Positions 1,286 through 43,585 of a stretch of 64,000 nt of DNA are shown here, in pieces; position 1 is the stretch's first letter, and each line of letters opens with the position of its first letter. Source of the stretch: Armatimonadota bacterium (GTDB lineage: Bacteria > Armatimonadota > UBA5829 > DSUL01). The notes under the pieces are model-generated. The model searched no databases, was not told the DNA's origin, and was given only the letters and a program-made list of their open reading frames with translations. The position numbers were made by a program, and so were the translations under genes. The stretch lies in the NCBI GenBank assembly GCA_052033935.1, contig JBPOJE010000073.1, forward strand, positions 2,159 through 66,158, in the 5' to 3' direction.

Positions 1286-1291
1286 AGTGCG

Positions 1292-3685: not shown

Positions 3686-3929
3686 TGCGGCAGCTTCTCA
3701 AGTGCTGTTCGTTTTGTGAATAATCTATATTGTGCTTGGAATTCTAAGTAGAAAATGGTATGATAACACGCTCTCAACCCGGAAAGCGGCTTTTCAGCGG
3801 CAATGCCGGCGCCGCACTCACGGGCGGCAGGATATTCCTATGACAACAGCCGTAGTTCTCTCGAACGGTAGGAGGCGTGTCGCCAGGGCTTGCGTCCCCA
3901 GACCGTCATCTGAAAGGTGCACGATCGCT

Positions 3930-7751: not shown

Positions 7752-7922
7752 GGTTTTCGGAGAACTCAAAGTCTGCTATGCAGGGGCGCTCCGCCTACGG
7801 GAGGGGCGCCCGCATGGTATCATGAACCTGTCAGCGTGATGCCGGGCAGACGATACCCAGCCACGGCCTGTCGAGGGCCAACGGGTTGTCTGAGCCGGCA
7901 TCGAGTCACAAAGGTTCCTGCT

Positions 7923-10900
7923 ATGTCACGCCTGCCGTTCATTGCTACAGTCATTCTTGCGCTATCCGCCGCTGCGGCGCTGGCTGCTTCGCAGCCGCCC
8001 GTCGCGGGGACAATCAGCCCGGCCTCGGGAGATCTTGAGGCCGGAGCGGTTTACACGTTCACGGCCACCTTCGAAGACCCCGACGGCTATGCGGATATCG
8101 CGGACTGCCGCGTTCTGCTGAACACCGCCATCTCCGGCGCGAACGGCATTTTCGTCTTCTACAATGCTGTGAGCAACAAGCTCTACCTGCGCAACGACAA
8201 CAACACGGCGTGGCTGGGCGGGTATGCGCCCGGGTCGGCTGGCACGATAGACAACTCACAGTGCGCCGTCCACTGCTCCGGAAGCAGTGTGAGCGGATCG
8301 GGCAACAGGCTGACTGTGAACCTCTGCATTCTCCTTAAGGGCAGCCTCAGCGGAATCACACTTTCCGAGTGGCTGTATGCGGGAGACAGGTCGAAGCTGG
8401 GCGACGGCTGGAATCAGGCGGGCTCGATTCGCGTGGAGGCGTCGCCCGCTCCGCCCGTGACCGGAACCATCAGCCCCGCCGCCGGGCACCGCTTCGCGGG
8501 CGTCACGCACACGTTCACCGCGACGTTCGATGATCCGGAGGGATTCGAGGACATCCGCGACTGCCGCATCCTGCTCAATACCGCGATTTCCGGCGCGAAC
8601 GGCATATTCGTTTACTTTGACATCGCGAAGAACAGGGTCTATCTTCGCAGCGACAACAACACGGCGTGGCTGGGCGGATATGCTCCCGGCACCCCGAACA
8701 CAATCGAGAACGGGCGCTGCAGGGTCTATTGCGCCGGGACCAGCCTGCGCGGATCGGGAACCAGGCTGACCGTCACCCTGCAGGCTTACGTGAAGCCGGG
8801 AGTGGCCGGGAAGATTCTCAAAGAGTGGCTCTATGCGGGCGACAAGGCGGGCGCGGGCGACGGATGGAATCAGGCGGGCGCTCTCTACTTCGTTCCCCCC
8901 GCGCCGATGAACACCAGCGTCAGCCCGTCCAGCGGGCGGGTGTCGGCGCCGGGGTGGACGACCATCACCACGGCGCAGTACGACCCCAACGGGTTCGCTG
9001 ACATCAGAAGCTCCTACCTGCTCATCAACAGCAACTTCACGGGGCTCGGAGCGGTTTACGTGTGGTACGACGCGGTGGAGGACCTGCTCTATCTGCGCAA
9101 CGATGCCAACACGGGCTGGCTGGGCGGGTTCGCGCCTGGTTCGGAGAACATCATCTCGAACGGCCGCGCCGATCTGGACTGCGCCGCCACAACGGTTAAG
9201 GGCAGCGCCCAGACGCTGACGGTGGGCTGGCGCGTCAACATACGGCCGCCGCAGCCTGAGTGGGAGTGCGGGGCCTGGATGTATGCGGCCGACACGGCCG
9301 GGCTAAACTCAGGCTTCGAGAAGAAAGGTGACATCGTCTTCGACCAGGCACCCACGAATGCATCGCTCGAGCCGGCGTCGGGCGGCGCACTCTCGGTGGG
9401 GCAAACGTCTGTCCTGAGCGCAAAGTACACAGACCCGAGCGGCGCAGCCGACCTTCGCGGGGCGTACCTCGTGCTCAACACTACGCTGTCAAGCTTCCGC
9501 GGCGTTTCGCTCTGGTACGACGCCGGCGCGGACAGGCTGTGGCTGCGCAACGACCTGAACACGGCGTGGCTGGGCGGCATAGCGCCCGGAACCTCTGGCG
9601 TCATCGAGAACGGCTACTGCAAGATTGACTGCGCCGGAACGGCCGTCGAGCGCTCGGGCACGGATCTGGTGGTGAACTGGAAGATCGAGCCGAAGGCCTC
9701 GCTCAGGGGGAAAGCGCTCGGATCGTGGATGTACTGCGTTGACGCCGCCGGGCTGTCGGATGGCTGGGACCAGATGACAACCTACACCATCGGGAGCTAT
9801 CTCAATGTATCGCTCACGCCGTCATCCGGCGAAGTCCCCGCGCTGCAGCCGTTGTCGCTGACCACCGAATGCCTGGCACCTAACGGCGCGGCCGCGACGA
9901 GCACCTATCTGCTTCTGAACACGGCGGTCAACGCGGCGAACGGGGTGTATCTGTATTATGATGGGCCGGGCAACCGGCTCTATCTTCGCAACGACACCGG
10001 CTCGGCCTGGCTCGGCGGCTTCGCGCCGGGCAGCGCCAACACCATCGCCAACAGCCTGGTGACGGTGAACTGCGCGGGCACCACGGTTCAATCAGCCGAG
10101 GGGCGGATGCGGGTCGCCTGGTCGGTCGAGTTCAAGGCGTCGGACCGGCAGTTCACAGCCTGGATGTACACAGCCGACACCGCCAGGTTCACCGACGGCT
10201 GGGATACGATGGGCGTTCTGCAGGTCGTGAACCCAGACGGCATGGTTTACATACCGGCGGGTCCGGCCCTGATCGGCAGCGTTGGGGACGAGCCGTACGC
10301 CGAGAGCGACGAGCTTCCCCGGCACGAGGTATATCTGGCGGCATACTGGATAGGGCGCACCGAGGTGACACGCGCGCAGTACCGGGCGTTCATGGACTCG
10401 GGCGGATACCACAACCCCGCGTACTGGTCGGGCGAGGGCTGGACCTGGAAGATGGCCAACGACCGCACCGAGCCCGACTACTGGGCCGCGCAGCAGGACT
10501 GGGGCGGCTCCTCGTTCACGCAGACAGAGGCTCATCCGGTGGTCGGCGTTACGTACTACGAGGCCGAGGCTTACTGCGCCTGGGCGGGCGGGTATCTCCC
10601 CACAGAAGCGCAGTGGGAGAAGGCCGCGCGCTGGACGGGCAGCACGGCGAACGCGTACCCGTGGGGCGATGTGTGGGATCCGGAGAAGTGCAACAACTTC
10701 CACGACCGGAACCTGGCCGGGGGCGGGTATCAGGGCTATCAGACGGCGGCGGTGGGCAGCTACCCTGCCGGGGCAAGCCCGTACGGATGCCACGACATGG
10801 CCGGGAATGCGTGGGAATGGTGTCAGGACTGGTACGTTTCGTATCCGGGCAGCAGCGCTCCGTTTGACTTCACCGGTGCCTACCGCGTGGTGCGCGGCGG

Positions 10901-11000
10901 CGGGTGGGACTACGGACTGGACGGCGCGCGCTCGGCGAACCGGGCCTACTACGCCCCCGTCAACCGCTGGCACGACTGCGGATTCCGCCTGGCCAGGTAG
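7923..11000 (+). CDS. secreted protein with five tandem ~150-aa repeats and a C-terminal FGE-sulfatase (SUMF1/DUF323) fold domain
   Basis: ORF 7836..11000. Probable start ATG 7923 (MSRLPFIATVILALSAAAALAAS signal, AAAGG RBS). The C-terminus reads YLAAYWIGRTEVTRAQYRAFMDSGGY...GCHDMAGNAWEWCQDWY...YRVVRGGGWDY...WHDCGFRLAR, typical of the FGE-sulfatase fold. The canonical catalytic Cys pair of true FGEs is not evident. Confidence 0.75.
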   Translation: MSRLPFIATVILALSAAAALAASQPPVAGTISPASGDLEAGAVYTFTATFEDPDGYADIADCRVLLNTAISGANGIFVFYNAVSNKLYLRNDNNTAWLGGYAPGSAGTIDNSQCAVHCSGSSVSGSGNRLTVNLCILLKGSLSGITLSEWLYAGDRSKLGDGWNQAGSIRVEASPAPPVTGTISPAAGHRFAGVTHTFTATFDDPEGFEDIRDCRILLNTAISGANGIFVYFDIAKNRVYLRSDNNTAWLGGYAPGTPNTIENGRCRVYCAGTSLRGSGTRLTVTLQAYVKPGVAGKILKEWLYAGDKAGAGDGWNQAGALYFVPPAPMNTSVSPSSGRVSAPGWTTITTAQYDPNGFADIRSSYLLINSNFTGLGAVYVWYDAVEDLLYLRNDANTGWLGGFAPGSENIISNGRADLDCAATTVKGSAQTLTVGWRVNIRPPQPEWECGAWMYAADTAGLNSGFEKKGDIVFDQAPTNASLEPASGGALSVGQTSVLSAKYTDPSGAADLRGAYLVLNTTLSSFRGVSLWYDAGADRLWLRNDLNTAWLGGIAPGTSGVIENGYCKIDCAGTAVERSGTDLVVNWKIEPKASLRGKALGSWMYCVDAAGLSDGWDQMTTYTIGSYLNVSLTPSSGEVPALQPLSLTTECLAPNGAAATSTYLLLNTAVNAANGVYLYYDGPGNRLYLRNDTGSAWLGGFAPGSANTIANSLVTVNCAGTTVQSAEGRMRVAWSVEFKASDRQFTAWMYTADTARFTDGWDTMGVLQVVNPDGMVYIPAGPALIGSVGDEPYAESDELPRHEVYLAAYWIGRTEVTRAQYRAFMDSGGYHNPAYWSGEGWTWKMANDRTEPDYWAAQQDWGGSSFTQTEAHPVVGVTYYEAEAYCAWAGGYLPTEAQWEKAARWTGSTANAYPWGDVWDPEKCNNFHDRNLAGGGYQGYQTAAVGSYPAGASPYGCHDMAGNAWEWCQDWYVSYPGSSAPFDFTGAYRVVRGGGWDYGLDGARSANRAYYAPVNRWHDCGFRLAR
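7992..10233 (+). repeat. five in-frame tandem repeats (~440-456 bp each) inside the FGE-domain gene
   Basis: Protein repeats share TISPASG...YTFTATF(E/D)DP(D/E)G(F/Y)(A/E)DI(R/A)DCR(V/I)LLNTAISGANGIFV...LYLRNDNNTAWLGGYAPG...C.G...GSG.RLTV...EWLYAGD..G.GDGWNQAG. Copies 1 and 2 are also highly similar at the nucleotide level. Unit starts are near 7992, 8449, 8894, 9341 and 9796. Confidence 0.8.
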
Positions 11001-11675: not shown

Positions 11676-12258
11676 CTACTCCTTCTGCTTCTCGGGAGCG
11701 GCGGCGGCATTGAAGCCCTGGTTTCTCAGTGTCTCAGCCTGCTTCTCCGCCTCGGCGCGCTCTTTGAAGGAACCCGCCTCGACCCGCCAGACATTCACAC
11801 CGCCGCTCGGCACCCTGGCGACTCGCGCCGTCAGCCCTTCCGCCCTGATCTCATCGGCGGCTTTCCGCGCGCCGGACTCATCCGGATAGTCGCCCACAAC
11901 CACGCAGTACGATCGGCGCGGCGTGGCGGGCCTGTCTTCGCTTATGTCCACATTCACCCCGCCCGGGGCGAGCGATGGGGGGTTCTGGACGCTATCTTGA
12001 GGGGAAGCAACCGGGCGCGCGGGGTCCACCCGGGGAGCGGGCGGCCTTGCGCCCCCGGGGAGCATCGGCCCGACGAAGTAGTACCCGATCAGCCCGCTCG
12101 CGACGAACGCGGTGAGGACTGCGAGAAACATGCCGAGCGCCCGTCCGGCGCGCCTGCGATCCACTGACCTGCGACTTTCCAATGTCCTCTGCTGCTGTGT
12201 GAAAAGTGGAGACAGACGCGTCCACGCCTCGCCTCCGTAGTGACTAGTGCACATCATA
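11676..12258 (-). CDS. SPOR domain protein (peptidoglycan-binding, division-associated)
   Basis: C-terminus RRSYCVVVGDYPDESGARKAADEIRAEGLTARV...WRVEAGSFKERAEAEKQAE is a SPOR repeat, preceded by a TM helix (MFLAVLTAFVASGLIGYYFV). The track ORF 11676..13523 is an artefactual N-terminal extension overlapping icd. Start is ambiguous (ATG 12258 or ATG 12131). Confidence 0.6.
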
Positions 12259-12518
12259 TCATGCCGTTGCGGCGGCACGAAACTCAGGCGGCAAAGCACG
12301 CGCACACAAGCGGCGCGTTCTCGTAAACTCCACGAGAGGAAACCAGCAAGTCCCGCCGCCGCCCCGTCCCTCCTGTCATTCCAGACCGATCCGGAATCCA
12401 AGCGGTTGTGCGTCCTAGGAACAGGATTCCCTGCAGACCGCAGTACGTTGGCGCAGGCTCCTGCTGGCGTGCTATAGTTCCAACAACCCGGCAACGGGAA
12501 CTGCTGGAGGTCAGAGTT

Positions 12519-13598
12519 TTGAGCCACAAAGTAACCCTCATCCGCGGAGACGGCACTGGTCCGGAGCTTGTCGAGGCTGCGCGCCGCGTGATAGACGCCC
12601 TCGGCGCGGGCGTTGACTGGGAAGTGATGGATGCTGGCGTTGACGTGATGGAGGCGAAGGGAACGCCGCTTCCGCCCGAGGTCATCGAAAGCATCCGCCG
12701 CAATGGGGTTGCGCTGAAGGGCCCCATCACGACGCCAATCGGCAAGGGGTTCCGGAGCGTCAACGTGGCTCTCCGGCAGGAACTGGGACTCTACGCCTGC
12801 CTGCGCCCCTGCAAGTATTATCCGGGCATCCGCTCCAAGTACGAGAACGTGGACATTGTCATCGTCCGCGAAAACACCGAGGACCTGTACGCGGGGGTGG
12901 AGTGGGACCGCGGCACGGACGAGGCAAACGCGATCATCAAAATGGGCGGCGGCAAGGTCGCCCCGAACTCGGCCATCTCGATCAAGCCGATCAGCTACGA
13001 GGGCAGCGCCCGCATCGTCAAGTTCGCGTTCGAATACGCCGTGAAGAACGGGCGCAGGAAAGTCACCGCCATCGCGAAAGCGAACATCATGAAGTTCACG
13101 GACGGGCTGTTCTACGAGGCCGCCCGCGACATTGCGAAGCTCTACGACGGGCAGATTGAGTACGAAGAGCGCCTGATAGACAACATGTGCATGCAGCTCG
13201 TCCAGAAGCCCGAGCTGTATGATGTTCTCGTAACCGAGAACCTGTACGGAGACATCATCTCCGACCTTGCCGCGGGGCTGGTGGGCGGACTCGGCATGGC
13301 GCCGGGGGCGAACATCGGCGCTGGCGGCGCGGTCTTCGAGCCGACGCACGGCAGCGCGCCGCGCTACAAGGGGCAGAACAAGGTGAACCCCACGGCACTC
13401 ATTCTGTCGGGCGTGCTGATGCTGCGGCATATCGGAGAGGAACACGCCGCGCTTCGTCTCGAAAAAGCAGTTGCAGCCGTGATTGCCGAAGGCAAGAGCG
13501 TAACCTACGACATGAAGCCGCATCGCGACGACCCGGCGGCGGCCGGGACGTCTCAGATGGCGGACGCGATCATTGAGAAGTTGAGGGAAACCCCATAA
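12519..13598 (+). CDS. icd: NADP-dependent isocitrate dehydrogenase (homodimeric type)
   Basis: [24 protein letters not shown]...[28 protein letters not shown]...ENTEDLYAG...NLYGDIISD match the IDH/IMDH family. Probable start is TTG 12519 with a GGAGG RBS 8 nt upstream. The track ORF from 12408 adds a non-homologous leader. Confidence 0.9.
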
Positions 13599-13645
13599 GA
13601 GAAGCGCCTCGCCTGCGCGGCGGGACTGGAGACGGGAGTCAGGAA

Positions 13646-14728
13646 ATGAGCAGAGTGTACAATTTCAGCGCGGGGCCGGCTGTTCTGCCGGAGGAAGTCC
13701 TGCGAATTGCCGGCGAGGAGATTCTCGACTGGCGTGGCAGCGGAATGTCGGTGATGGAAATGAGCCATCGTGGCAAGGAGTTCATTGGCATCGCGGCGGA
13801 GGCGGAAGCCGACCTGTGCGAGCTTCTGAAGATTCCGGACAACTACAAGGTGCTGTTCCTGCAGGGCGGCGCGACGGGGCAGTTCGCGGCCGTGCCGATG
13901 AACCTGCTCCGGGGCAAGACCTCAGCCGACTACGTTCACACCGGGCAGTGGGCCAAGAAGGCCATCGCCGAGGCGAAGAAGTACTGCGCGGTGAACGTCG
14001 CCGCGTCGAGCGAGGACGAGAGCTTCACCTACGCTCCGCCGATGGACACCTGGCAGCTCTCGAAGGATGCCGCCTACGTCCATTACACCGCCAACGAGAC
14101 GATCGGCGGCGTGGAGTATCACTGGGTTCCGGAGACGGGCGGTGTGCCGCTTGCGTGCGACATGAGTTCGGATTTCCTGTCGCGCCCGGTGGATGTTTCG
14201 AAGTTCGGCGTCATCTACGCGGGAGCGCAAAAGAACGTGGCGCCGGCGGGGCTGACCATCGTGATCGTCCGCGAGGACCTGATGGGCGATCCGATTCCGT
14301 GCACGCCCACACTCTTCTGCTACAAGACGCAGGCAGACAACGACTCGATGTACAACACCCCTCCTTGCTGGACGATCTACGTGGCGGGGCTAGTGTTCAA
14401 GCGGCTCAAGACGCTCGGTGGGCTGGCGGAGATGGAGAAGGTCAACATCCGCAAGTCGCAGGCGCTCTACGATCTCATTGATGCGAGCGCGCTGTACCGC
14501 TCGCCGGTCCGCAAGTCCGACCGCTCGCGCATGAACATCCCGTTCACGCTTTCCAAAGACGGGCTCGACGAGCAGTTCCTGAAGGAAGCGAAGGAGAACG
14601 GGCTGATCCAGCTCAAGGGCCACCGTTCGGTCGGCGGCATGCGCGCGTCGCTGTACAACGCGATGTCGGAGGCCGGGGTCAAGGCGCTCTGCGATTTCAT
14701 GCGCGATTTCGAGAAGCGCAACGGCTAG
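13646..14728 (+). CDS. serC: phosphoserine aminotransferase
   Basis: MSRVYNFSAGPAVLPEEVLRIAGEEILDWRGSGMSVMEMSHRGKEF...LFLQGGATGQFAAVPMNLL is the SerC class V aminotransferase signature. 360 aa. Confidence 0.92.
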   Translation: MSRVYNFSAGPAVLPEEVLRIAGEEILDWRGSGMSVMEMSHRGKEFIGIAAEAEADLCELLKIPDNYKVLFLQGGATGQFAAVPMNLLRGKTSADYVHTGQWAKKAIAEAKKYCAVNVAASSEDESFTYAPPMDTWQLSKDAAYVHYTANETIGGVEYHWVPETGGVPLACDMSSDFLSRPVDVSKFGVIYAGAQKNVAPAGLTIVIVREDLMGDPIPCTPTLFCYKTQADNDSMYNTPPCWTIYVAGLVFKRLKTLGGLAEMEKVNIRKSQALYDLIDASALYRSPVRKSDRSRMNIPFTLSKDGLDEQFLKEAKENGLIQLKGHRSVGGMRASLYNAMSEAGVKALCDFMRDFEKRNG

Positions 14729-14729
14729 G

Positions 14730-14918
14730 GAGCGGCTCTACACCAACCCGAAGCAGCCGTTCGGCCAGACCGAGGCCGACTTCGCCATCATCGTCGTTCC
14801 CCCAGCGTTTCATGAAAAGATGGTGGATATGGCTGTCGAACACGGCGGCCATATTCTCTCCGGGAAGCCGATCGCTGATTCGGTGGAGGCCTGCTGCCGC
14901 ATTTGTTGCCGCGGGTGA
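14730..14918 (+). pseudogene. relic fragment of a Gfo/Idh/MocA-family oxidoreductase (internal ~60-aa Rossmann segment only)
   Basis: Translation ERLYTNPKQPFGQTEADFAIIVVPPAFHEKMVDMAVEHGGHILSGKPIADSVEACCRICCRG* matches the conserved D-A-V-x-I-x-T-P...H.......G-K-H-V-L-x-E-K-P-[IML]-A region of Gfo/Idh/MocA enzymes. It has no N-terminal GxGxxG or C-terminal domain, and lies in the serC-FDP intergenic gap. Confidence 0.5.
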
Positions 14919-15017
14919 TTCCACTTGCGGACATGGGGTATATTCCAGAGGATTAACATTCTGCCCGCGCTCAGGAGGGAGCCGGGCGGGTTTTTGACAG
15001 GCGCTAACGATAACACG

Positions 15018-16196
15018 ATGCAGAAGCGAAAGATTGCTGACGGAATCTACTGGCTGGGCGCGCTCGATTGGGACAGGAGGCTGTTCGACTCGCTGGTTCC
15101 GCTACCGGACGGCACGTCGTACAACGCCTATCTCGTGCAGGGCAGAGACAAGACCGCTCTGCTCGATACCGTTGATTCGATCATGGCGGGCAAACTCCTG
15201 GCGCAGCTCGAAGACGTGCCCAAAGTTGACTGCATCGTCTCGCATCACGCGGAGCAGGATCACTCGGGCACGATTCCTCTAGTTATGGAGAGGTATCCCG
15301 AAGCGAAGGTCATCGGCACCTCCAAGAACAAAGCCATGCTCTACGACCTGCTCAGGGTGCCGGAAGAGCGGTATGTGGCTGTCGAGGACGGCGAGACGCT
15401 GCCGCTAGGCGGCAGGACGCTGAAGTTCATCCACACGCCGTGGGTGCACTGGCCGGAGACGATGGTGAGCTATCTGGAAGAGGAGCGCATTCTGTTCAGT
15501 TGCGACTTCTTCGGATCGCACATGGCCGCAAGCGATCTGTTCGTGACCGACCAGTCGCGCGTTTACGAAGCGGCGAAGCGCTATTACGCGGAGATCATGA
15601 TGCCGTATGGCAACATGATCGCGAAGAACATCAAGAAAATCGAGCCGTACGATATCCGGATGATCGCCCCCAGCCACGGGCAGCTCTATGACGATCCAGC
15701 ATGGATCCGCGACGCGTACCGCGACTGGGTGACGGGGCCGCCGCGCAATCTGGTTGCCCTGCCTTACGTATCCATGCACGGCAGCACGCAGCAGATGGTG
15801 GAGCATCTGACGAACGCCCTGGTGGGGCACGGAGTACGGGTGGAGCCCTTCAACCTTGACGTCACGGACATCGGGAAGCTGGCGATGGCGCTGGTGGACG
15901 CCGCGACGATTGTGGTGGGCACCCCGACCGTGCTGGCCGGCCCGCATCCGCTGTCGGCTTACGCGGTGTTCCTCGCCAACGCTTTGAGGCCGAAGGCTCA
16001 GTTTCTTGCCATTATCGGCTCCTATCAATGGGGCGGCAAGGCGGTGGACACGCTTGCGGGGATGGCTTCGAACATCAGAGCGGAGGTGCTCGGTTCGGTC
16101 ATGAGCCGGGGACTGCCACTCGAGAGTGACTTCGGGGCGCTGGACGAGCTCGCGGCGCTCATCGCGGAGAAGCACAGACAACTCAATCTCCCCTAG
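15018..16196 (+). CDS. flavodiiron protein (type A flavoprotein; metallo-beta-lactamase-like di-iron domain + flavodoxin domain), NO/O2 reductase family
   Basis: MQKRKIADGIYWLGALDWDRRLFDSL...YNAYLV...VDCIVSHHAEQDHSG...FIHTPWVHWPETMVSYL...LFSCDFFGSH is characteristic of FprA/FDP. Start ATG 15018 is preferred over the track start 14925. Confidence 0.85.
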   Translation: MQKRKIADGIYWLGALDWDRRLFDSLVPLPDGTSYNAYLVQGRDKTALLDTVDSIMAGKLLAQLEDVPKVDCIVSHHAEQDHSGTIPLVMERYPEAKVIGTSKNKAMLYDLLRVPEERYVAVEDGETLPLGGRTLKFIHTPWVHWPETMVSYLEEERILFSCDFFGSHMAASDLFVTDQSRVYEAAKRYYAEIMMPYGNMIAKNIKKIEPYDIRMIAPSHGQLYDDPAWIRDAYRDWVTGPPRNLVALPYVSMHGSTQQMVEHLTNALVGHGVRVEPFNLDVTDIGKLAMALVDAATIVVGTPTVLAGPHPLSAYAVFLANALRPKAQFLAIIGSYQWGGKAVDTLAGMASNIRAEVLGSVMSRGLPLESDFGALDELAALIAEKHRQLNLP

Positions 16197-16278
16197 AAGT
16201 GGGGGCACACGGACCGGCGGCCTGTCAGCCGTCACAGCGCCCCTGACCCCGGGCAATCCACGGGAAAGGGCATCAGCA

Positions 16279-17948
16279 GTGTATTGTTTTCAGTGCTAGG
16301 AGACAGCCAAGAACGAGGGCTGCAGCATCAGGGGAATATGCGGCAAGGCACCGGAGACCGCCGATCTTCAGTATCTGCTTATCTACGTGTGCAAGGGGAT
16401 ATCTGTTTTTGCCAGCAGGCTCGGCCAGTTCGGCCCGGTTGACAAGAAGTACGGGCGCGCGGTCTATCAGGGCCTATTCGTAACCGTCACAAACGTCGCG
16501 TGGGACAATGGCACCATTGTGGAGCACATCCGCGAGGCGCTCGCCGTGCGAGACGCGATCAAGGCGGAGTTTCTGGCGGCCTACAAGGAAAAGAACGGCA
16601 GCGGCTTCGCCGAAGCGCTGCCCGATTGCGCCGCCTGGAGCCCGGCCGATGACGCCGAAATCCTCGCAAAGGCCGGATCCGGCGAAGTGCGCATCACCGC
16701 TCAGGAGAACGAGGACGTCCGGTCGCTGCGCGATCTGCTGACTATCGGCTGCAAGGGGATCGCCGCCTACGCCTGGCACGCCGCCGTGCTGGGACACGAG
16801 AAGGCCGAGATCTACGCCTTCATCATGGAAGCCCTCGATTCGACGACGAAGGACCTCTCGGTTGACGAGATGGTGAGGCTGGTGATGAAGGCCGGCGAGA
16901 TGTCCGTCGCGGCCCTGGCGCTCTTGAACGAGGCGAACACCTCCGCCTACGGCAGCCCCGAGATCACCGAAGTGAACCTCGGAGTTCGGAACAATCCGGG
17001 TATCCTCATCCCCGGGCACGATCTGAAGGACATGGAAGAGCTGCTGAAGCAGACCGAGGGCATGGGCGTGGACGTTTACACGCACGGCGAGATGCTTCCG
17101 GCGAGCTACTACCCGGCGTTCAAGAAGTACGGGCACTTCGTGGGCAACTACGGCGGGTCGTGGTGGCATCAGACACGGGATTTCGAGGCGTTCAACGGGC
17201 CGATTCTGATGACGGCCAACTGCCTGGTTCCGCTCAAGCTCGAGAACACCTATCTCGACCGGCTGTTCACCACCGGCGTGGTCAGCTACCCGGGCGCCAC
17301 CCACGTTCCGGATAGGGCGGATGGCGGCGCGAAGGACTTCTCGAAGCTGATCGAGCGGGCGAAGGACTGCAAGCCGCCCACCGGGCTGGAGACAGGCAAG
17401 CTCGTGGGAGGGTTCGCGCACAATCAGGTGCTGGCCCTCGCGGACAAGGTTGTGGATGCCGTCAAGTCAGGCTCCATCAAGCGCTTCGTTGTGATGGCTG
17501 GCTGCGACGGCAGGAAGAAGGAGCGGCAGTACTTCACGGATGTCGCCGCCGCTCTGCCGAAGGACACCAGATCCTTACGGCCGGCTGCGCGAAGTACCGC
17601 TACAACAAGCTGGAACTCGGCGACATCGGCGGCATTCCGCGCGTGTTGGACGCCGGCCAGTGCAACGACTCGTACTCGCTGGTGGTGATCGCCCTCAAGC
17701 TGAAGGAAGTCTTCGGGCTCGAGGACATCAACGATCTGCCGATCTCATACAACATCGCCTGGTACGAGCAGAATGCCGTGGCCGTTCTACTGGCGCTGCT
17801 CTATTTGGGTGTCAAGGGAATCCGGCTGGGCCCGACCCTGCCCGCGTTCCTTTCGCCGAACGTGGCGAAGGTACTTGTGGGGAAATTCGACATCAAGCCG
17901 ATCGGAATGGTCGGGGACGATGTCGCGGCGATGATGGCCGGGAAGTAG
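16279..17948 (+). pseudogene. hcp: hybrid-cluster protein / hydroxylamine reductase (Hcp), disrupted by an in-frame TAG at codon 7 and a 1-nt deletion frameshift near 17567
   Basis: GTG 16279 (GGGAAAGGG RBS) gives VYCFQC*ETAKNEGCSIRGICGKAPETADLQYLL, the Hcp N-terminal Cys cluster, with TAG at 16297-16299 where Hcp has Glu. The frame continues into track ORF 16387..17688. At ...ALPKDT|RSLR the frame slips, and the C-terminus [36 protein letters not shown]...[16 protein letters not shown] continues in the +2 frame to 17948 (track ORF 17643..17948). Confidence 0.8.
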
Positions 17949-17985
17949 CACCAGACCCGGCGCTGTTGTTGTCCGGCCGGGTTCG

Positions 17986-19495
17986 TCAGTGGGAGTCCTG
18001 AAAAACGGAGTAAGACTCGCCGGGGCCGACAGGTGCCAGCCTGATGTCCTTCTCGCAGACCCAGCCCGCGCCTTCGGCAACCTCCACCTTCCACCAATGT
18101 CCGCCCAGCCCCAGGATGCCGTTCAGCCCGTGGGCGGATACTCTGCCAGCGGAACCTGCCTCGGCTGTTGCTGCCGCCGCATAGTTCATGCCGGGTCCAA
18201 GCCGCAGTTCCACAGCGTTCTTGAGCGCGATTCGCACGCTTTGCGCGAGTCGGTGGCTGCGGACCTCCGGAAGCAGATTGACCATGACGCTGCCGTTCGC
18301 GACCGGGCGCTCCGGGCCGTCCGAAGTCTTGTTGACCACCTTCCCGTTGATCCACAGGGTCGAGGAGCCGCCGCCGTCCTGGTTCGTGCCCCATGTGGCC
18401 TTTAGCTCGTCCCGGCAGAACGCGCCAAGCTCGGCCATGTTCATCCCCACGCTCACGCCCGGGTCGCGCCCGTCGCAGACGATGAAGAACACGTAGTGGG
18501 CGTTGTATGCGATGGCGGTGCGGGGGGTGCGGATGAGCAGGCCCTTGTTGTCCGTCTCCACAATCCGGCCGTCGCGCAGAAAGGTGAAGTTGCCGCCCAC
18601 GCACGAGTATGACCGCCGCCAGTCGAGCGGACGCCGCGTTTCGCAGTCCTTCTCCCAAGTGCTCAGAACCTGCGAAAACGTGACTCTGCCTCCGGGCGAG
18701 GCTGCTTTCGCGAGCGCATCGGCGTCGCGTCCCTCGGCCGAGAGCACCACGCAGTCGAACGGGATGGGTGTGGAGCCTTTGCCGCTGCGGACATCGAGCA
18801 CGGTTCCCCGCGCGGCTCTAGGCCGGGCACCGTGAGGCCGACCGGGCCGTTCACCTGCACGAGCACTTCCACGCCGTTGCCCGAAGTCATCGTCGTGGCG
18901 TCGAAGTGGGGAGTGTAGAGCACGAGTTCGTTTGTCTGGCGGGGTTCGTTGACGCGGCTGATCCCCAGTTCCGGGCCGCCGTCACACCGAACCGCGCGGC
19001 CTGCTCCTCGCGCTTGTGGCTCACGCAGTCGCCGATGAACGTCTCCCTGTCCAGCGTCCACACGAATCCGCTCATGCCGCCATACTCGAAGAACCGGTGC
19101 GCGTACCACCCGCCAAGAATCTGCCCGCCCGTCTGAACGCCGGTGCGTGGGTTGAAGAAGTCGCCGTTGATGGCGGCGACGGCCTTGTTTCGCCGCTTCC
19201 AGCGTCCGCCCCAGGTATTGATCGCGCCGTCGTAGCGCTTCACCTGGTCGCGCACGGTCTCGCGCGCGCCGGACACCGTGCCGCCCGCCACCATGCTGTC
19301 GATCGTGCAGTTCGGATTCGCCCGGTCCATCCGCACGACGAACACGTTGTTCGGGTGCGGCAGGGTGAACTTCTGATACTCGAAGCCGTCGCCTACCGGC
19401 GTCCACGCAAGGGCGCGGCCGTCGGCGATGGCCAGCGCGGCGAAGAGCCCGAGCGCCCACCTCAGACGAGACGAAGGAGACTTCCAGCCATTCAT
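17986..19495 (-). pseudogene. phosphodiester glycosidase (DUF2233 / NAGPA-like) family secreted protein, interrupted by two frameshifts as assembled
   Basis: N-terminal ORF 18887..19495 has a signal peptide plus AINGDFF...GMSGFVWTLDRE. The middle segment (...CDGGPELGISRVNEPRQTNELVLYTPHFDATTMTSGNGVEVLVQVNGP) is in a second frame. The C-terminal ORF 17986..18801 (YNAHYVFFIVCDGR...NQDGGGSSTLWINGKVVN) is in a third. Shifts are near 18990 and near 18805 (at a GGGG run). Confidence 0.65.
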
Positions 19496-19505
19496 CCTGC
19501 GCGGG

Positions 19506-20513
19506 TCACGGTTCGGAAATACCCTCCTGCTCGGGAATGAGCGGCCCTGGGCTTTCGCCCTGCCAGTACGAGCCGGTTGTGACGATGTTCAAGCCGCCGT
19601 CGCCGCGCCGCAAGGCAACAAGGCAGCTCACGCCCCCGCTGCATAGCTCGGGTAGCTCCAAGCCTTCCTCTCCCAGCACGATGAGCGCTGTCGAGTACGC
19701 ATCGCAGAACGTGGCGTCCCGCGCGGCAACGGCCACCAGCACGGCACCCTGGGCGGGCCGGCCGGTTCGCGGGTCAATAATGTGGCCCACAACCTCGCCG
19801 TCTCGCATAACGGTCTTCCCGGCGGTGCACGAGACGCCCAGGCTGCTGTCGTAAAGCCAGGTCTCGGCGAGCACCCGGCCGGGTTCGTGCGGGTCCGGGT
19901 CCGCGACCGCCACGCGCCAGCCCCGGCTGTCGCTGTGAGTCCCGATTGCCGTCACGCTGCTCGTTCCGCCGTGAATAAGGGCCGACCGGACACCGCACTG
20001 CCTGAGAGCGGCCGCCGCGTTGTCGAGGGCTACCCCCTTGCCGACAGCCCCGAAGTCGAGTTCCACGCCGGGCCTGTCGAACGAGACCGTCCAGTCGTCC
20101 CCCCCGAGCTTGATGTGATGCGTCCCGGTGAGCGTGCGCGCCTCCTCAATCTCGGCGTCGGTACCCGGCTCGCGTTCGCCCGTCAGCCCCCAGGCGCGCA
20201 GAAGCGGGCGAACGGTGATGTCGAACGCGCCACCCGTGGCCATGCACATGGCGACAATGCGCTCCAAACGCAGCAGAGCCTCGTGACCGACCTTCACAGG
20301 ACGCAGTCCCGCGTGCTCGTTGATGTGGTAGGTCAGGCTGGAGGGGAGGTAGGCGCTGAACATCTCCTCGGCGCGCGATATTTCGTCCAACGCTTCTTCC
20401 CCGGCCGCGCGCAGGCGGTGGGGTTCAGCGCCGGTGAGTGCAATCTCAAAGCGCGTCGCCATCGCGTGCCGCGAAACCATAACCAGACTGCGGTCGTCCA
20501 TAGCTCGCATCAT
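19506..20513 (-). CDS. FAD:protein FMN transferase (ApbE family), no signal peptide
   Basis: 335 aa. DFGAVGKGVALD (DxGxxxKG motif) and overall ApbE-like sequence are present. The N-terminus is not signal-like, so it is probably cytoplasmic. Confidence 0.8.
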   Translation of the reverse strand: MMRAMDDRSLVMVSRHAMATRFEIALTGAEPHRLRAAGEEALDEISRAEEMFSAYLPSSLTYHINEHAGLRPVKVGHEALLRLERIVAMCMATGGAFDITVRPLLRAWGLTGEREPGTDAEIEEARTLTGTHHIKLGGDDWTVSFDRPGVELDFGAVGKGVALDNAAAALRQCGVRSALIHGGTSSVTAIGTHSDSRGWRVAVADPDPHEPGRVLAETWLYDSSLGVSCTAGKTVMRDGEVVGHIIDPRTGRPAQGAVLVAVAARDATFCDAYSTALIVLGEEGLELPELCSGGVSCLVALRRGDGGLNIVTTGSYWQGESPGPLIPEQEGISEP

Positions 20514-20604
20514 ACCAGAATGGCGCGGCGGGGCGCGAAAAAAGCCGGGGACACGGCCACGCCGTGCCCCCGGCTCCTGTCAGATATCTCTTTTCTGCCT
20601 GCGG

Positions 20605-21891
20605 CTAGACGATCTTCTTCTTGACCGGGTCGAAGTTCATCGTCTTGCCCTGTAGCCAGGCCATCTCGGCCAGGCAAACCACCGTCTGAACCTTGGCCGC
20701 GAGGTCAATGTTGCAGTTCGGGGTCTCACCGGTGCGGATGCAGTGGAACCAGTTGCGCTGATGCTCGCTCTGGCTCTCGCCGGGGCCTACGATCTCGACG
20801 TCTTCTTGATCAATCTCGTCCACGAACGGGCGCTGCGGCCTGATCTGAACCTTGCCGCCGCCGAAGTAGATGTCCGCCTTCGTTCCGCGGATAAGATCCT
20901 CGGGGCCGGTCTCGTTGACGGTGGATCCGATCAGGATCATCTGCGAGCCGTTAGGGAACTGCACGAGGCACTGAGTCGTGTCGGCCACGTCGCGGTCCGG
21001 GGTCGCAATGATCGAGCCGACGGTCATAACCTGCGTCGGATAGTCCGCGCCGCAGGCGATCATCAGCGGGTGCAGCCTGTGCGGGAACAGGTCCGACAGG
21101 ATGCCGGCGGAATACCGGCGATACTTGCGCCAGCGGAAGTAGTGCTCCGGATTCCACGGAATCTTCTTGCCCGTCTTGCCGAGCCACGCGTCCCAGTCGA
21201 GGTTCACGCCCGGCTTCGCGTCATCGTCAAAGCCGTAGTTCCACTCGCCGCCCGGATTGTTGCGGCAGTACCCGCCCTGACTCAGAACGACCTTGCCGAT
21301 CTTGCCCTTCTTGATCTGCTCGCCAGCGGTGCGCCACTTCGCGTCGCTGCAGCCCTGCGACCCGATCTGCACAACGCACTTTGTCCGCTTCGCGGTCTCG
21401 AGGAGCTGCTCGGTCTCTTTGAGGGTGCGGCACATCGGCTTCTCGATGTAGCAGTGAATGCCCTGCTCCATTGCGGCCAGCGCGATGGGTGCGTGCCAGT
21501 GCTCGGGGGTGCCGATGATGATGGCGTCCAAGCCCTTGATCTCGAGGACTTTCCTATAGTCGCGAAACGCCATGCTGGCGGGGAGGCCGGCGTTGTTACC
21601 ATTCGCCAGGGCGCGCTTGTCGAAGACATCGCAGACCGCGATGGACTTGACGTTCACCTCGGCGGGCTGCTCCTTGACCATGTTCACATGGCCGCCGCCC
21701 ATGCCTCCGACACCGATATGCCCGATGTTGATGCGGTCGTTCGCGCCGATCACGCGCGCGGGCGCGACCGCGTAAACGGGGCTCTTCGCCACCGACGTAA
21801 CCGCCAGGCCCGCCGCCGTAGCTCCGGCGGCCTTCAGAAAGTCCCTGCGCGAAAGATTCTTCGCGTCTGTGCTCTTCGTTTCCAGATCCAT
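20605..21891 (-). CDS. Gfo/Idh/MocA family oxidoreductase with twin-arginine (Tat) signal
   Basis: MDLETKSTDAKNLSRRDFLKAAGATAAGLAVTSVA (RRDFLK Tat motif), then NIGHIGVGGMGGGH (Rossmann) and ...YIEKPMC. Confidence 0.85.
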   Translation of the reverse strand: MDLETKSTDAKNLSRRDFLKAAGATAAGLAVTSVAKSPVYAVAPARVIGANDRINIGHIGVGGMGGGHVNMVKEQPAEVNVKSIAVCDVFDKRALANGNNAGLPASMAFRDYRKVLEIKGLDAIIIGTPEHWHAPIALAAMEQGIHCYIEKPMCRTLKETEQLLETAKRTKCVVQIGSQGCSDAKWRTAGEQIKKGKIGKVVLSQGGYCRNNPGGEWNYGFDDDAKPGVNLDWDAWLGKTGKKIPWNPEHYFRWRKYRRYSAGILSDLFPHRLHPLMIACGADYPTQVMTVGSIIATPDRDVADTTQCLVQFPNGSQMILIGSTVNETGPEDLIRGTKADIYFGGGKVQIRPQRPFVDEIDQEDVEIVGPGESQSEHQRNWFHCIRTGETPNCNIDLAAKVQTVVCLAEMAWLQGKTMNFDPVKKKIV

Positions 21892-40090: not shown

Positions 40091-40135
40091 CCGGAGCTTT
40101 CCTCCTTGCGGCCTCCGGGCTGCAAGCTCCGGGCA

Positions 40136-40173
40136 TCCCCCCGGCCGATTTCGGCCGGGGGGGATGTTTTTTT
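40136..40173. terminator. bidirectional rho-independent terminator between convergent genes
   Basis: CCCCCGGCCGA-TTT-CGGCCGGGGGGG perfect GC hairpin is followed by ATGTTTTTTT on the + strand and preceded by A/U-rich sequence on the - strand. It lies between the stops at 40090 (+) and 40184 (-). A second hairpin CCGGAGC...GCTCCGG sits at 40091-40132. Confidence 0.75.
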
Positions 40174-40183
40174 GCGTACGGGG

Positions 40184-40795: not shown

Positions 40796-41004
40796 AGCGA
40801 TGGTTTCCGGGTTGGTGTCATTTTGGTGTCTCCGCCGGGATGATAGCAGATATCGCAGGCGGGAGTAAGGGGCCGCCGTGGTATAATAGCGACGCGAGAG
40901 ATTCCTGCAGACAGGCTCCTTCATGGGCACGGTGTGCTGGGGTGGAGAAACAGCAAGAAGTTCGGTTCACAACAGGAGTGGTTGGTGTTGCCTGAAGGCT
41001 CAAA

Positions 41005-41208: not shown

Positions 41209-41234
41209 CGGCACATTCAACAGAGTTTGACGAG

Positions 41235-41267
41235 AAGCCCCACAGGGAGGCCGGGCGGGGCTTTTTT
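41235..41267 (+). terminator. putative intrinsic terminator
   Basis: AGCCCC...GGGGCT stem (6 bp, long GC-rich loop) is followed by TTTTTT at 41262-41267. Confidence 0.4.
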
Positions 41268-41486: not shown

Positions 41487-42565
41487 CTACGGCGTGTCCA
41501 CAATCCGCCCGTCAACGGCCCAGACGCCGCCGTTGCACTGGGAGAAGGCTGCGATGGTGCGCTCGTCCTTCACGAACAGCGAGTTCCACCAGCCGCCTTC
41601 GTCCTCCGGCACCTCGAACGGGACGGAGCGCCCTTCGAAATTGCGCGCGTTCTCGTCGCCGACGTAAACAACGATCTGCGGTTGCTTGCGCCCCACGCTG
41701 GACTGGAACGAGAGCACCGTCTCGCCGCCTGGCATCTGGCGGATGCACGGCGCCCCGCCCCATTCACTGCCGGGCGGCTTCCGGACCGCCCTCCACCGCC
41801 TCGGGCTTGCTCCGCTTGCCGCAAGCGGCTTCCAGTTGTCCTCCATGTTCGAATGGACGATCACCGGGTGGAACATGACCGAGTAACCGTTGTCCTCGAT
41901 GGCGACGACGATCCCCTTGCCGCCCCGCAGTATCAGGGGCGAGGGCATCCCGTCGTGGTGGTTCGGCCGGAAACTGATCGCCTTCGCACTGCTCCATGTG
42001 CGCCCGTTGTCAAACGACCGCACGAGCGAAATCTCCTGCTCGCTCGTGTTTCGGTAAGGGTTCTCGTTGGCGAAAAAGAGCTGAATCTCCCCGAAGGAAG
42101 CTGGATGGCCGCTGGCTCCCAGCATCCGTTGTCCCACACCGTGTCGGCCTCATACGCCAGCGAGTGCGGCTTCCATGTGCGGCCGCCATCTTCGCTTACG
42201 CTGAGGTGGATTGAGAACCGGTGCACGCCGTCCTTCGGGCGCTCGTTGTACATCAGCAGCGCCCAGCCGTTTGCGAGCTGCAGCAGTTCGGGGTTCGACG
42301 CGGTCCCGGATGGAACGCCGGCCACTTCCGCGAAGCCGTCCCACGTCTTGCCGTCGTCCGCGCTGCGCTTCACGCACACTTTGCCGCGCAGCGCGAAGCT
42401 GGCGAGGATATCGCCTCCTTTGAGCCGGATCATCCGCGGGTATCCGCCCCCGCGTTGGACTTCGACGAGCGTGCTCCTGTCCCAGACGATGGTCTTACCG
42501 GAGAAGGCTGCCTGGGCGGCCACTGTCAGAAGAGCGGCCATGAGCGGAAGCGCAAGGATCTTCAT
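41487..42565 (-). CDS. BNR/Asp-box repeat exo-alpha-sialidase-like glycosyl hydrolase, frameshifted as assembled
   Basis: Start MKILALPLMAALLTVAAQA (signal). Asp-boxes KRSADDGKTW, SVSEDGGRTW, RSFDNGRTW are present. The N-terminal part is in track ORF 41933..42724 and the C-terminal part in 41487..42137. The junction ...AIQLPSG|EIQLFFANE is at a GGGG run near 42095. Confidence 0.65.
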
Positions 42566-42623
42566 GCTAATTGCTTCGGCACAGCGGTGCCGGTCTCCTT
42601 GACAGGACGAGGGGTGAATCTTC

Positions 42624-43585
42624 ATGCTTGGCGCAACGATGAACACCGAGAGGATACACATGCCGCGACTGTGCCTGTTCGCCTTTGCTCTCGTCGTGCT
42701 GGCGGCCGCCGCCCCGGCCTTCACTGAGCCAGCCTACCCGGAGTCGCCGGAGGGCGTGACGCTGATTGCCGATGTGGCTTATCTCGCGCAGGGCCGTGAG
42801 GAGAAGTTGGACATCTACCTGCCTGTGGGGCGCAAGGCCGGCCAGCACTCGCCCGCCATGGTGATGATTCACGGAGGCGGTTGGGCGAGGGGCGACAAGA
42901 CGGGCGCGAGGGAATACGAGACGGGTGCGATTCTGGCGCGGGCGGGCTATGTGGCCGTCAGCATCAACTACCAGATGGCTCCCGGAAGGCGCTGGCCAAC
43001 GAACCTGCTCGATTGCAAGAACGCGGTGCGGTTCCTGCGCGTCAACGCGGAATATTACAGCGTGGACCGGCGCGCATCGGTGTGATGGGCGGTTCGGCGG
43101 GCGGGCATCTGGCGCTGATGACCGCCTACACTACCGGTGCGCCGGGACTCGAACCAGCAAGCCCCTACCCCGGCGTGTCGAGCCGGGTGAGCTGCGTCCT
43201 TGATCTTTACGGCCCCACCAGCCTGCTGACGCGGGAGAAGACCGACGCGAAGGGCAACCTGACGGGGGTCCCTGTGAATACCCTTGGCCTCTTCAGCCCC
43301 ACCCGCCAGCAGGACCCGGGGTTGTGGAGGTTGGCGTCGCCGGTCAGCTACGTGCGGAAGAACTCCCCGCCCACGCTGATTCTGCACGGTCTGGCGGATA
43401 CCACGGTGGACCGCGGTCAGGCCGAAGCGCTTGCGGCGAAGTTGGCGGAGCACGGCGTGGAGCACAGGCTGGTGCTGCTTGAGGGCGTCGGTCACTCGTT
43501 CTACCTGAAGACGTGGAAGAACAAGCCGCTGCCTTTGGACGTCGAGGGCATTGCTCTGGAGTTCTTGGCAAGGCATCTGAAGTGA
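42624..43585 (+). CDS. secreted alpha/beta-hydrolase fold-3 esterase/lipase (HGGG + GxSxG), frameshifted as assembled
   Basis: MPRLCLFAFALVVLAAAAPAFT is the signal. MIHGGGWARGDK is the oxyanion HGGG motif. After ...NAEYYSVD the frame shifts (CC run near 43068) into IGVMGGSAGGHLA (nucleophile) ...LILHGLADTTV (track ORFs 42624..43085 and 42881..43585). Confidence 0.65.

What the first reader, a model, noticed from the sequence alone, without database searches (positions are those of the whole stretch)
16279..17948. hcp carries two independent lesions next to an intact flavodiiron NO/O2 reductase gene
Hcp is a nitrosative-stress hybrid-cluster protein. Here it has an in-frame TAG exactly at the conserved Glu of the N-terminal C-x2-C-E-Q-T Cys cluster (CFQC*ETAK), plus a 1-nt deletion frameshift before the C-terminal domain. 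The adjacent FDP gene is intact. Reinitiation at ATG 16387 would lose the N-terminal Fe-S Cys motif. So this is either genuine decay of hcp in this lineage, or a point error plus an indel error in the assembly. TAG being read as pyrrolysine is very unlikely in this context.
Basis: seen in the sequence. Interest (0 to 1): 0.5.

Follow-up and report, generated by a model that had tools for sequence, protein, structure and literature searches.

The report
Dead hcp gene, real not artefact
The nitrosative-stress gene hcp in this uncultured bacterium is a genuine, decaying pseudogene: its stop codon and frameshift recur in many independent sequencing runs, and it is one of at least four broken genes in the window, so this is ordinary gene loss and not an assembly error or recoding.

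Summary
Both lesions are real. Codon 7 of hcp is TAG (16297-16299). One base is missing at 17569-17570, which puts the last 125 codons out of frame. With both repaired, the translation is a full-length hydroxylamine reductase/Hcp (NF003658, 792 bits). It aligns end to end with Desulfovibrio vulgaris Hcp.

Two details need correcting:
- The TAG replaces Gln (CAG in the sister lineage, Q in at least 98% of 119 homologues), not Glu.
- The restart codon at 16387 is GTG, not ATG.

Assembly error is excluded. Independent per-run assemblies are 100% identical to the window. They carry the frameshift in 9 runs and the TAG in 4 runs.

The closest intact relative (91% amino-acid identity, same gene order) has a 556-aa hcp. 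On the window's branch Hcp gained 24 unique amino-acid changes against 8 on the sister branch. Ten of the 24 fall at near-invariant positions, against 1 in the sister. The intact neighbours FDP and SerC are symmetric.

TAG ends other genes normally, and the frameshift site has no slippery sequence.

hcp is not alone. The adjacent NAGPA gene, a BNR-like gene and an esterase are also frameshifted, and three more genes are deleted, while sister lineages keep them all.

Verdict: an ordinary, fairly recent pseudogene in a lineage that is losing accessory genes.

The parts
16279..17948 (+). hcp pseudogene (hybrid-cluster protein / hydroxylamine reductase). It would encode 556 aa if repaired.
   Evidence: The repaired translation scores NF003658 792 bits and aligns end to end with D. 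vulgaris Hcp 1E2U.
16285..16341 (+). Codons for the four N-terminal cubane-cluster cysteines (C3, C6, C15, C21). The TAG interrupts them after C6.
   Evidence: translation CFQC*ETAKNEGCSIRGIC. Alignment to 1E2U. The ligand roles come from established knowledge of D. vulgaris Hcp.
16297..16299 (+). Lesion 1: an in-frame TAG replacing Gln7 (CAG in the sister lineage).
   Evidence: Identical in Logan contigs from 4 runs.
17569..17570 (+). Lesion 2: a 1-nt deletion within the Val431 codon (Val428 in D. vulgaris numbering). It puts Cys434, Cys459 and Glu494 (D. vulgaris numbering) out of frame.
   Evidence: Identical in Logan contigs from 9 runs.
16387..17688 (+). Residual 433-aa ORF starting at an internal GTG and ending in 40 out-of-frame codons. 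Databases call this as protein P0125.
17643..17948 (+). Residual 101-aa ORF covering the Hcp C-terminus. Databases call this as P0157, found on 9 contigs.
15018..16196 (+). Intact class-A flavodiiron protein gene (392 aa), 82 nt upstream on the same strand.
   Evidence: dN/dS 0.108; diiron motifs aligned to 1YCF; symmetric branch lengths, 15 vs 13.
17986..19495 (-). Adjacent, convergent NAGPA-family gene, also a pseudogene. It carries two +2 insertions, at 18816 and 18983. The orthologue in L081 is 504 aa.
   Evidence: The same split is seen in 5 Logan contigs.
14730..14903 (+). A 174-nt remnant of a GFO_IDH_MocA gene. The sister locus has Cupin_2 plus this gene intact at the same place.
41487..42680 (-). 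BNR/sialidase-like pseudogene with a 1-nt deletion at 42090. The gene is 397 aa and intact in sister locus L092.
42624..43585 (+). BD-FAE esterase pseudogene with a 1-nt deletion at 43067. The gene is 325 aa and intact in L092.
   Evidence: (profile positions 1-89 and 95-215 lie in different frames).

Best explanation
hcp is a non-functional pseudogene that appears fixed in a clonal lineage of an uncultured bacterium (no intact allele was found, though reads were not inspected).

Shown:
- A C>T transition turned Gln7 (CAG) into TAG, so translation from the native start ends after six residues.
- A separate 1-nt deletion in codon 431 shifts the last 125 codons. These carry three of the seven hybrid-cluster ligands.
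- Either lesion alone abolishes the enzyme.

Inferred:
- After the first hit the gene drifted. It picked up the second lesion and about 16 excess amino-acid replacements, several next to metal ligands (S245P, T313A, K499N).
- The gene has evolved neutrally for roughly the last tenth of the time since the split from the nearest intact relative.
- The upstream flavodiiron gene remains under purifying selection and presumably covers NO/O2 detoxification alone.
- The loss belongs to a wider shedding of accessory genes in this lineage.
For: 1. Lesions and family identity.
2. Not an artefact: 16 Logan loci from 13 runs in 5 accession series are 100.000% identical to the window. The frameshift is present in 9 runs and the TAG in 4.
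3. No intact allele of the window type exists in the 15-billion-protein collection. The only window-type members are the 433-aa and 101-aa fragments. All eight full-length members of the 90% cluster are sister-type.
4. Relaxed constraint specific to hcp:
   - Lineage-unique amino-acid changes are 24 (window) vs 8 (sister), p=0.007. Controls: FDP 15 vs 13, SerC 3 vs 4.
   - Deviations at columns at least 98% conserved are 10 window-only vs 1 sister-only. Controls: FDP 3 vs 2, SerC 2 vs 1.
   - dN/dS is 0.172 against 0.118 pooled for 13 neighbouring genes, at similar dS (0.237 vs 0.251).
5. In 12.6 kb aligned with sister locus L081, the only frame-breaking indels lie in hcp and NAGPA. The only other indel inside an intact gene (6 nt in ApbE) and NAGPA's two other indels (9 and 6 nt) are multiples of 3. 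That is the signature of selection, not of random error.
6. TAG is a working stop codon here.
7. There is no repeat tract or inverted repeat at either lesion. The sequence AAG GAC ACC AGA has no X-XXY-YYZ slippery heptamer.
Against: - All 4 N-terminal cysteines and all 7 hybrid-cluster ligands are still encoded, and 82 of 132 nucleotide differences from the sister fall at third codon positions. Most of the divergence therefore happened under selection, and inactivation is fairly recent.
- The contrasts of hcp against the control genes are only suggestive (Fisher p=0.076 and 0.115).
- Only 64 kb of the genome was available. A second functional hcp copy, suppressor tRNAs or pyl genes elsewhere cannot be excluded.
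- Raw reads were not inspected, so a minority intact allele could exist.
- It is not known whether the 13 runs are biologically independent samples or repeated sampling of one culture or site.
Confidence: 0.9

Rival explanations
1. The TAG and the missing base are sequencing or assembly errors in an otherwise intact hcp.
For: The source is evidently a metagenome-assembled contig. A 1-nt indel and a point change are typical error types.
Against: Identical lesions appear in per-run assemblies of 9 runs (frameshift) and 4 runs (TAG) from several SRR and ERR series. All are 100% identical to the window. Frame-breaking indels are confined to specific genes, and the other genic indels are multiples of 3. 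Errors cannot create an excess of substitutions at conserved sites.
Confidence: 0.02
2. hcp is expressed by recoding. UAG would be read through (as pyrrolysine, or as Gln by a suppressor) and a programmed -1 frameshift would restore the C-terminal domain, giving a functional Hcp.
For: The TAG sits at a Gln codon position, and near-cognate Gln insertion at UAG is known in bacteria (general knowledge). All metal ligands are still encoded.
Against: - TAG terminates SerC, FDP and GFO_TAT at orthologous lengths.
- The window contains no tRNA gene other than tmRNA.
- Restoring the frame needs a -1 or +2 shift at AAG GAC ACC AGA, which has no slippery heptamer.
- Two independent recoding events in one gene would be needed.
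- All intact relatives have plain CAG and GTG at these sites.
- Near-invariant residues have been replaced.
Confidence: 0.02
3. The fragments have residual or new function. The 433-aa product from GTG 16387 and/or the 101-aa C-terminal ORF would be made and would act separately or as a split enzyme.
For: Both ORFs exist and gene callers pick them up. dN/dS is still well below 1.
Against: - The 433-aa product lacks all four cubane cysteines and ends in 40 out-of-frame residues.
- The 101-aa ORF starts after Cys434 and shortly before Cys459, so hybrid-cluster ligand Cys434 would sit in neither correctly framed piece.
- The low dN/dS is explained by divergence accumulated before inactivation.
- Window-specific replacements hit conserved positions.
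Confidence: 0.04
4. The broken allele is a strain-level polymorphism and not fixed. Intact window-type alleles would coexist in the population.
For: Several Logan contigs break at the same position (starting at about window 17261-17268). That suggests co-occurring variants in those samples.
Against: No intact window-type Hcp exists among 15 billion proteins. Every contig covering either site carries the lesion. The contig breaks are more simply explained by the co-occurring 91%-identical sister lineage.
Confidence: 0.08

Closest known systems
Desulfovibrio vulgaris Hildenborough hybrid-cluster protein (class I Hcp; PDB 1E2U/1W9M)
   Same: It has the same N-terminal CxxC-x8-C-x5-C motif. The residues equivalent to His244, Glu268, Cys312, Cys406, Cys434, Cys459 and Glu494 are all encoded.
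   Different: The reading frame here is interrupted twice. Conserved neighbours of the ligands are replaced: S242P, N273S, T310A, A466V, D489N and K496N in D. vulgaris numbering. It cannot yield the enzyme.
Intact orthologue in the sister lineage (P0001 cluster; locus L081, ENA scaffold MUNK22-1_SAMEA7428479 scaffold_51)
   Same: 91% amino-acid and about 92% nucleotide identity, with the same FDP-hcp-NAGPA-ApbE gene order.
   Different: The sister has CAG and GTG at the two lesion sites and a 556-aa ORF. It also keeps intact NAGPA, MFS, Cupin_2 and GFO_IDH genes, which are broken or absent in the window.
Bacterial pseudogenes formed by nonsense and frameshift mutations (Lerat & Ochman 2005, cited in PMC4534486)
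   Same: A disrupted ORF whose orthologues in close relatives are intact. Multiple lesions have accumulated and the substitution pattern is relaxed.
   Different: Nothing unusual. The only particular point is that the gene is hcp, which is usually strongly conserved. A full-text search found no paper in this library reporting hcp itself as a pseudogene.

Membership tests
Hybrid-cluster protein / hydroxylamine reductase (NCBIfam NF003658, Pfam PF03063 Prismane) | Full-length match to the family profile above the curated cutoff | tested here: met
   The repaired translation scores 792 bits against a cutoff of 367. Prismane scores 545.8 bits over profile positions 1-512 of 513.
Hybrid-cluster protein / hydroxylamine reductase (NCBIfam NF003658, Pfam PF03063 Prismane) | N-terminal four-Cys motif for the [4Fe-4S] cubane cluster | tested here: met
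   C3, C6, C15 and C21 are encoded, but the TAG falls between C6 and C15.
Hybrid-cluster protein / hydroxylamine reductase (NCBIfam NF003658, Pfam PF03063 Prismane) | Seven hybrid-cluster ligands (His244, Glu268, Cys312, Cys406, Cys434, Cys459, Glu494 in D. vulgaris numbering) | tested here: met
   All seven align. The ligand identities come from established knowledge of the D. vulgaris structure. The last three lie downstream of the frameshift.
Hybrid-cluster protein / hydroxylamine reductase (NCBIfam NF003658, Pfam PF03063 Prismane) | Uninterrupted ORF able to encode the enzyme (functional membership) | tested here: not met
   TAG at codon 7 and a 1-nt deletion at codon 431. By descent it is a member of the family. 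It is not a functional gene.
Class-A flavodiiron protein (FprA type), for the neighbouring gene | Metallo-beta-lactamase-like domain with diiron ligands, plus a flavodoxin domain, in an intact ORF | tested here: met
   Pfam ODP/Lactamase_B plus Flavodoxin_1. HxExDH, H, D and H align with Moorella FprA 1YCF. It is 392 aa like its orthologues, with dN/dS 0.108.
Flavorubredoxin NorV (NF003954 / NF008887 equivalogs), for the neighbouring gene | Score above the equivalog cutoff, and a C-terminal rubredoxin domain | tested here: not met
   213 bits against a cutoff of 635, and 189 against 711. The protein ends after the flavodoxin domain. It is an FDP but not NorV.
Pyrrolysine (UAG) recoding | pylTSBCD genes, and UAG avoided as a terminator | tested here: not met
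   The window contains no tRNA gene apart from tmRNA. TAG ends SerC, FDP and GFO_TAT at orthologous lengths. The rest of the genome could not be tested.
Programmed ribosomal frameshifting | Slippery heptamer at the shift site, conserved in relatives | tested here: not met
   The site reads AAG GAC ACC AGA TCC. All relatives have an ordinary in-frame GTG. No repeats lie nearby.

The most novel reading that the evidence does not exclude
hcp decay may be one symptom of ongoing reductive evolution in a single, widely re-sampled clone of a poorly classified bacterial lineage. About 4 of roughly 47 protein genes in 64 kb are frameshifted or nonsense-mutated, and 3 more are deleted. All are intact in sisters at 85-92% nucleotide identity. 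The contigs are 100% identical across 13 runs. This could reflect a recent shift to a restricted or partner-dependent niche in which anaerobic nitrosative-stress defence and several glycan or ester hydrolases are dispensable.
Probability: 0.25. Interest if true: 0.4.

Novelty: new member of a known kind. Interest (0 to 1): 0.2.

Why it matters
For annotation, this locus should be labelled an hcp pseudogene. The 433-aa and 101-aa 'Prismane' proteins now in databases (P0125, P0157) are fragments and not enzymes. Metabolic reconstructions of this MAG should not credit it with Hcp activity.

Biologically, it shows that hcp can become dispensable while the co-located flavodiiron gene stays under selection. 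It also flags this lineage as carrying an above-average load of recent gene inactivations.

The case is a worked example of separating real pseudogenes from MAG errors by using independent per-run assemblies. It does not open a new question.

Tried and rejected
- The genome-contig scan with the repaired Hcp returned 80 loci at 74% identity or less. It found neither the source genome nor a close relative, so it gave no help with taxon or synteny.
- Taxon assignment failed. The best named SerC relatives are only 'MAG [bacterium]' at 77% and 'Armatimonadetes bacterium' at 76%. Window features such as DUF1559/prepilin, PEP-CTERM, many TAT-GFO oxidoreductases and FGE-sulfatase domains are not diagnostic.
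- A search for the run and sample accessions in the paper library found nothing, so the habitat is unknown.
- The literature search for hcp pseudogenes returned only unrelated uses of the word.
- Promoter and terminator scans were uninformative.
- Rfam found only tmRNA.
- No repeats or inverted repeats lie at the lesions, which rules out a phase-variation tract.
- Same-frame adjacency of some long stop-to-stop segments separated by a single TAG (for example 3720-7751 and 7752-11000) was considered as possible TAG readthrough. It was rejected for the checked pair because the downstream gene starts about 165 nt later, at a length matching its orthologue; other such pairs (e.g. 47017-48066 / 48067-49869) were not examined.
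- Pairwise dN/dS alone does not discriminate: hcp at 0.172 lies within the neighbours' range of 0.067-0.223. Branch-polarised tests were needed.

Full report
**What is in the sequence**

Window 16279-17948 (+) reads GTG TAT TGT TTT CAG TGC TAG GAG ACA..., that is V-Y-C-F-Q-C-stop-E-T-A-K, with the TAG at 16297-16299. The same frame carries recognisable Hcp sequence up to ...AALPKDT (ACC at 17566-17568). It then degenerates and stops at 17686-17688. Hcp sequence resumes in another frame as [34 protein letters not shown]... from 17571 to the TAG stop at 17946-17948.

With an X at the stop and one codon restored at the shift, the 556-aa product scores as follows:
- 792 bits against the NCBIfam equivalog NF003658, hydroxylamine reductase (cutoff 367).
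- 546 bits against Pfam Prismane, over the whole profile.
- An end-to-end alignment with Desulfovibrio vulgaris Hcp, PDB 1E2U.

- The TAG replaces a Gln, not a Glu. The closest intact relative has CAG there. Q occupies that column in at least 98% of 119 homologues. The following Glu is still present.
- The first in-frame restart at 16387 is GTG, not ATG.

**Real lesion or assembly error**

The 433-aa ORF 16387-17688, including its 40 out-of-frame terminal residues, is an exact database entry (P0125). The 101-aa C-terminal ORF is P0157. Looking up where these proteins and the neighbouring FDP are encoded returned Logan contigs, which are assembled separately for each sequencing run. Every one is 100.000% identical to the window over 1.0-6.0 kb.
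- The frameshift site is present in nine runs: SRR31933955, SRR22590158, SRR22590163, SRR22590172, SRR34217571, SRR34217576, ERR4982102, ERR4982103 and ERR14964778.
- The TAG site is present in four runs: SRR31933955, SRR22590158, SRR22590171 and ERR14964778.

An error in one assembly cannot explain this. I could not inspect reads or establish how independent the samples are.

**Comparison with relatives**

The nearest intact Hcp (the P0001 cluster) is 91% identical and 556 aa long, and the cluster has eight full-length members seen on dozens of contigs. It lies on a syntenic ENA scaffold, locus L081. The gene order there is SPOR, MFS, Iso_dh, SerC, Cupin, GFO, FDP, hcp, then NAGPA, ApbE and the GFO genes on the opposite strand.

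At the two lesion sites L081 has CAG and ACA GTG ATC, where the window has TAG and ACC A-G ATC.

No window-type intact Hcp exists in the 15-billion-protein collection.

In the 12.6 kb that aligns with L081:
- The only frame-breaking indels are the one in hcp and two +2 insertions in the adjacent NAGPA gene.
- The only other indel inside an intact gene (6 nt in ApbE) and NAGPA's two other indels (9 and 6 nt) are multiples of three.
- The remaining indels are intergenic.

That distribution is what selection produces, not random error.

**Evidence of decay beyond the two lesions**

I took alignment columns that are at least 98% conserved among 119 more distant homologues. At these columns the window's Hcp deviates at 12 of 261. 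Its intact sisters deviate at 3-4, and other homologues at a mean of 0.75 with a maximum of 6.

Ten deviations are specific to the window: D32Y, G45A, M213L, D217N, S245P, N276S, T313A, A469V, D492N and K499N. Only one is specific to the sister.

Three of these lie two residues from hybrid-cluster ligands. In D. vulgaris numbering they are S242P next to His244, T310A next to Cys312, and K496N next to Glu494. The positions come and the ligand roles from established knowledge.

Polarising all differences with the homologue consensus gives 24 window-unique changes against 8 sister-unique changes (p=0.007).

The same tests on the intact neighbours are symmetric:

| Gene | Lineage-unique changes (window vs sister) | Deviations at conserved columns (window-only vs sister-only) |
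|---|---|---|
| Hcp | 24 vs 8 | 10 vs 1 |
| FDP | 15 vs 13 | 3 vs 2 |
| SerC | 3 vs 4 | 2 vs 1 |

The acceleration is therefore specific to hcp. The direct cross-gene contrasts, however, are only suggestive (Fisher p=0.076 and 0.115).

Pairwise dN/dS is 0.172 for hcp against 0.118 pooled over 13 neighbours. dS is similar (0.237 vs 0.251), and 82 of 132 differences fall at third codon positions. Most of the divergence therefore predates inactivation.

As a rough inference, about 16 excess replacements over about 1263 non-synonymous sites corresponds to about 0.013 substitutions per site of neutral evolution. That is about a tenth of this branch.

**Rival readings**

- *Recoding is not supported.* TAG terminates SerC, FDP and a TAT-GFO oxidoreductase at exactly the orthologous lengths. 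The window has no tRNA gene apart from tmRNA. Restoring the frame would need a -1 or +2 shift at AAG GAC ACC AGA, which is not a slippery heptamer. No repeat or inverted repeat lies nearby. Relatives have plain sense codons at both sites.
- *A functional split protein is implausible.* Translation from the native start ends after six residues. The GTG-16387 product lacks all four cubane cysteines. Cys434 would fall in neither correctly framed fragment.
- *A coexisting intact allele cannot be excluded without reads.* None was found.

**Context**

The upstream FDP gene (15018-16196) is intact. It is a class-A flavodiiron protein with diiron motifs aligned to Moorella FprA. It is not a flavorubredoxin, because it scores below the NorV cutoffs and has no rubredoxin domain.

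hcp is not an isolated casualty:
- The convergent neighbour, a NAGPA-family gene (17986-19495, minus strand), is split into 202-aa and 271-aa ORFs. Its orthologue is 504 aa.
- The MFS transporter, Cupin_2 and one GFO_IDH gene of L081 are absent. A 174-nt remnant of the last sits at 14730-14903.
- Farther along, a BNR/sialidase-like gene has a 1-nt deletion at 42090 and a BD-FAE esterase has a 1-nt deletion at 43067. Both are frameshifted here. Both are intact (397 aa and 325 aa) in a JGI sister locus, L092.
- Those two lesions are also present in other runs' assemblies.

That makes four disrupted genes out of roughly 47 protein-coding genes in the window, plus three deletions.

**Mechanism and meaning**

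*Shown:* there are two independent inactivating mutations. They are present in every assembly that covers the sites, and the gene carries a relaxed substitution pattern.

*Inferred:*
- One lesion came first and made the rest neutral. The order is unknown.
- The lineage no longer needs Hcp, an oxygen-sensitive enzyme used by anaerobes against NO and hydroxylamine (general knowledge).
- It keeps the FDP.
- The loss is part of a broader shedding of accessory functions.

The taxon is unresolved. The nearest named relatives of SerC are unclassified 'bacterium' MAGs at 77% identity.

**Verdict**

This is a genuine but ordinary pseudogene. It is a new instance of a well-known phenomenon, of low general interest. 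It is useful for correct annotation and as a pointer to possible reductive evolution in this clone.

Noticed in passing
window 17986-19495 (-): The NAGPA-family (phosphodiester glycosidase) gene next to hcp is also a pseudogene. Two +2 insertions, at 18816 and 18983, split it into 202-aa and 271-aa ORFs. The orthologue in L081 is 504 aa. The same split appears in 5 Logan contigs.
   Followed up: yes
window 41487-43585: Two more frameshifted genes lie here. One is a BNR/sialidase-like gene on the minus strand with a 1-nt deletion at 42090. The other is a BD-FAE esterase on the plus strand with a 1-nt deletion at 43067 (CCC to CC). Both are intact in sister locus L092 (397 aa and 325 aa), and both lesions are present in other runs' assemblies.
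   Followed up: yes
window 12313-12446 and 14729-14907, compared with L081 3253-4834 and 7115-8629: An MFS transporter, a Cupin_2 gene and a GFO_IDH_MocA gene present in the sister locus are missing from the window. A 174-nt remnant of the GFO gene (residues 58-115, 72% identity) survives at 14730-14903, so these are deletions in the window lineage.
   Followed up: partly
Logan loci L082-L091 and L095-L100, compared with window 12018-20948 and 39839-44219: Contigs from 13 runs in five accession series (SRR225901xx, SRR31933955, SRR342175xx, ERR49821xx, ERR14964778) are 100.000% identical to the window. This looks like one clone sampled repeatedly. Habitat and independence of the samples are unknown, and the accession search in the paper library found nothing.
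   Followed up: partly
window 15018-16196 (FDP): The FDP of this clade, in both the window and the sister, departs from the consensus at 10 shared columns that are at least 98% conserved in 117 homologues. Other homologues deviate at 4 at most. The changes sit mostly in the C-terminal flavodoxin part (for example C363S, K364R, K354R). The gene is nevertheless under purifying selection (dN/dS 0.108).
   Followed up: no
window 53100-58300 and 58603-58970: A low-GC stretch (0.53-0.57 against about 0.63 elsewhere) holds ORFs with fn3 and PD40 repeats and several ORFs with no family hit. It lies immediately upstream of the tmRNA gene (tag peptide ANTNNYSYALAA) and may be a horizontally acquired island.
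   Followed up: no
window 27503 onward, compared with L081 21245 onward: Synteny with the sister scaffold ends here. L081 continues into rpsB. The window continues into an FGE-sulfatase-domain gene and an ABC sugar-transporter cluster. Upstream of 41402, synteny with L092 also breaks.
   Followed up: no
window 1286-3685 (+): In this AMP-binding plus acyltransferase fusion ORF, the Pfam AMP-binding match begins only at profile position 68, near the protein's start. The N-terminal part of the domain may be deleted or mis-started.
   Followed up: no
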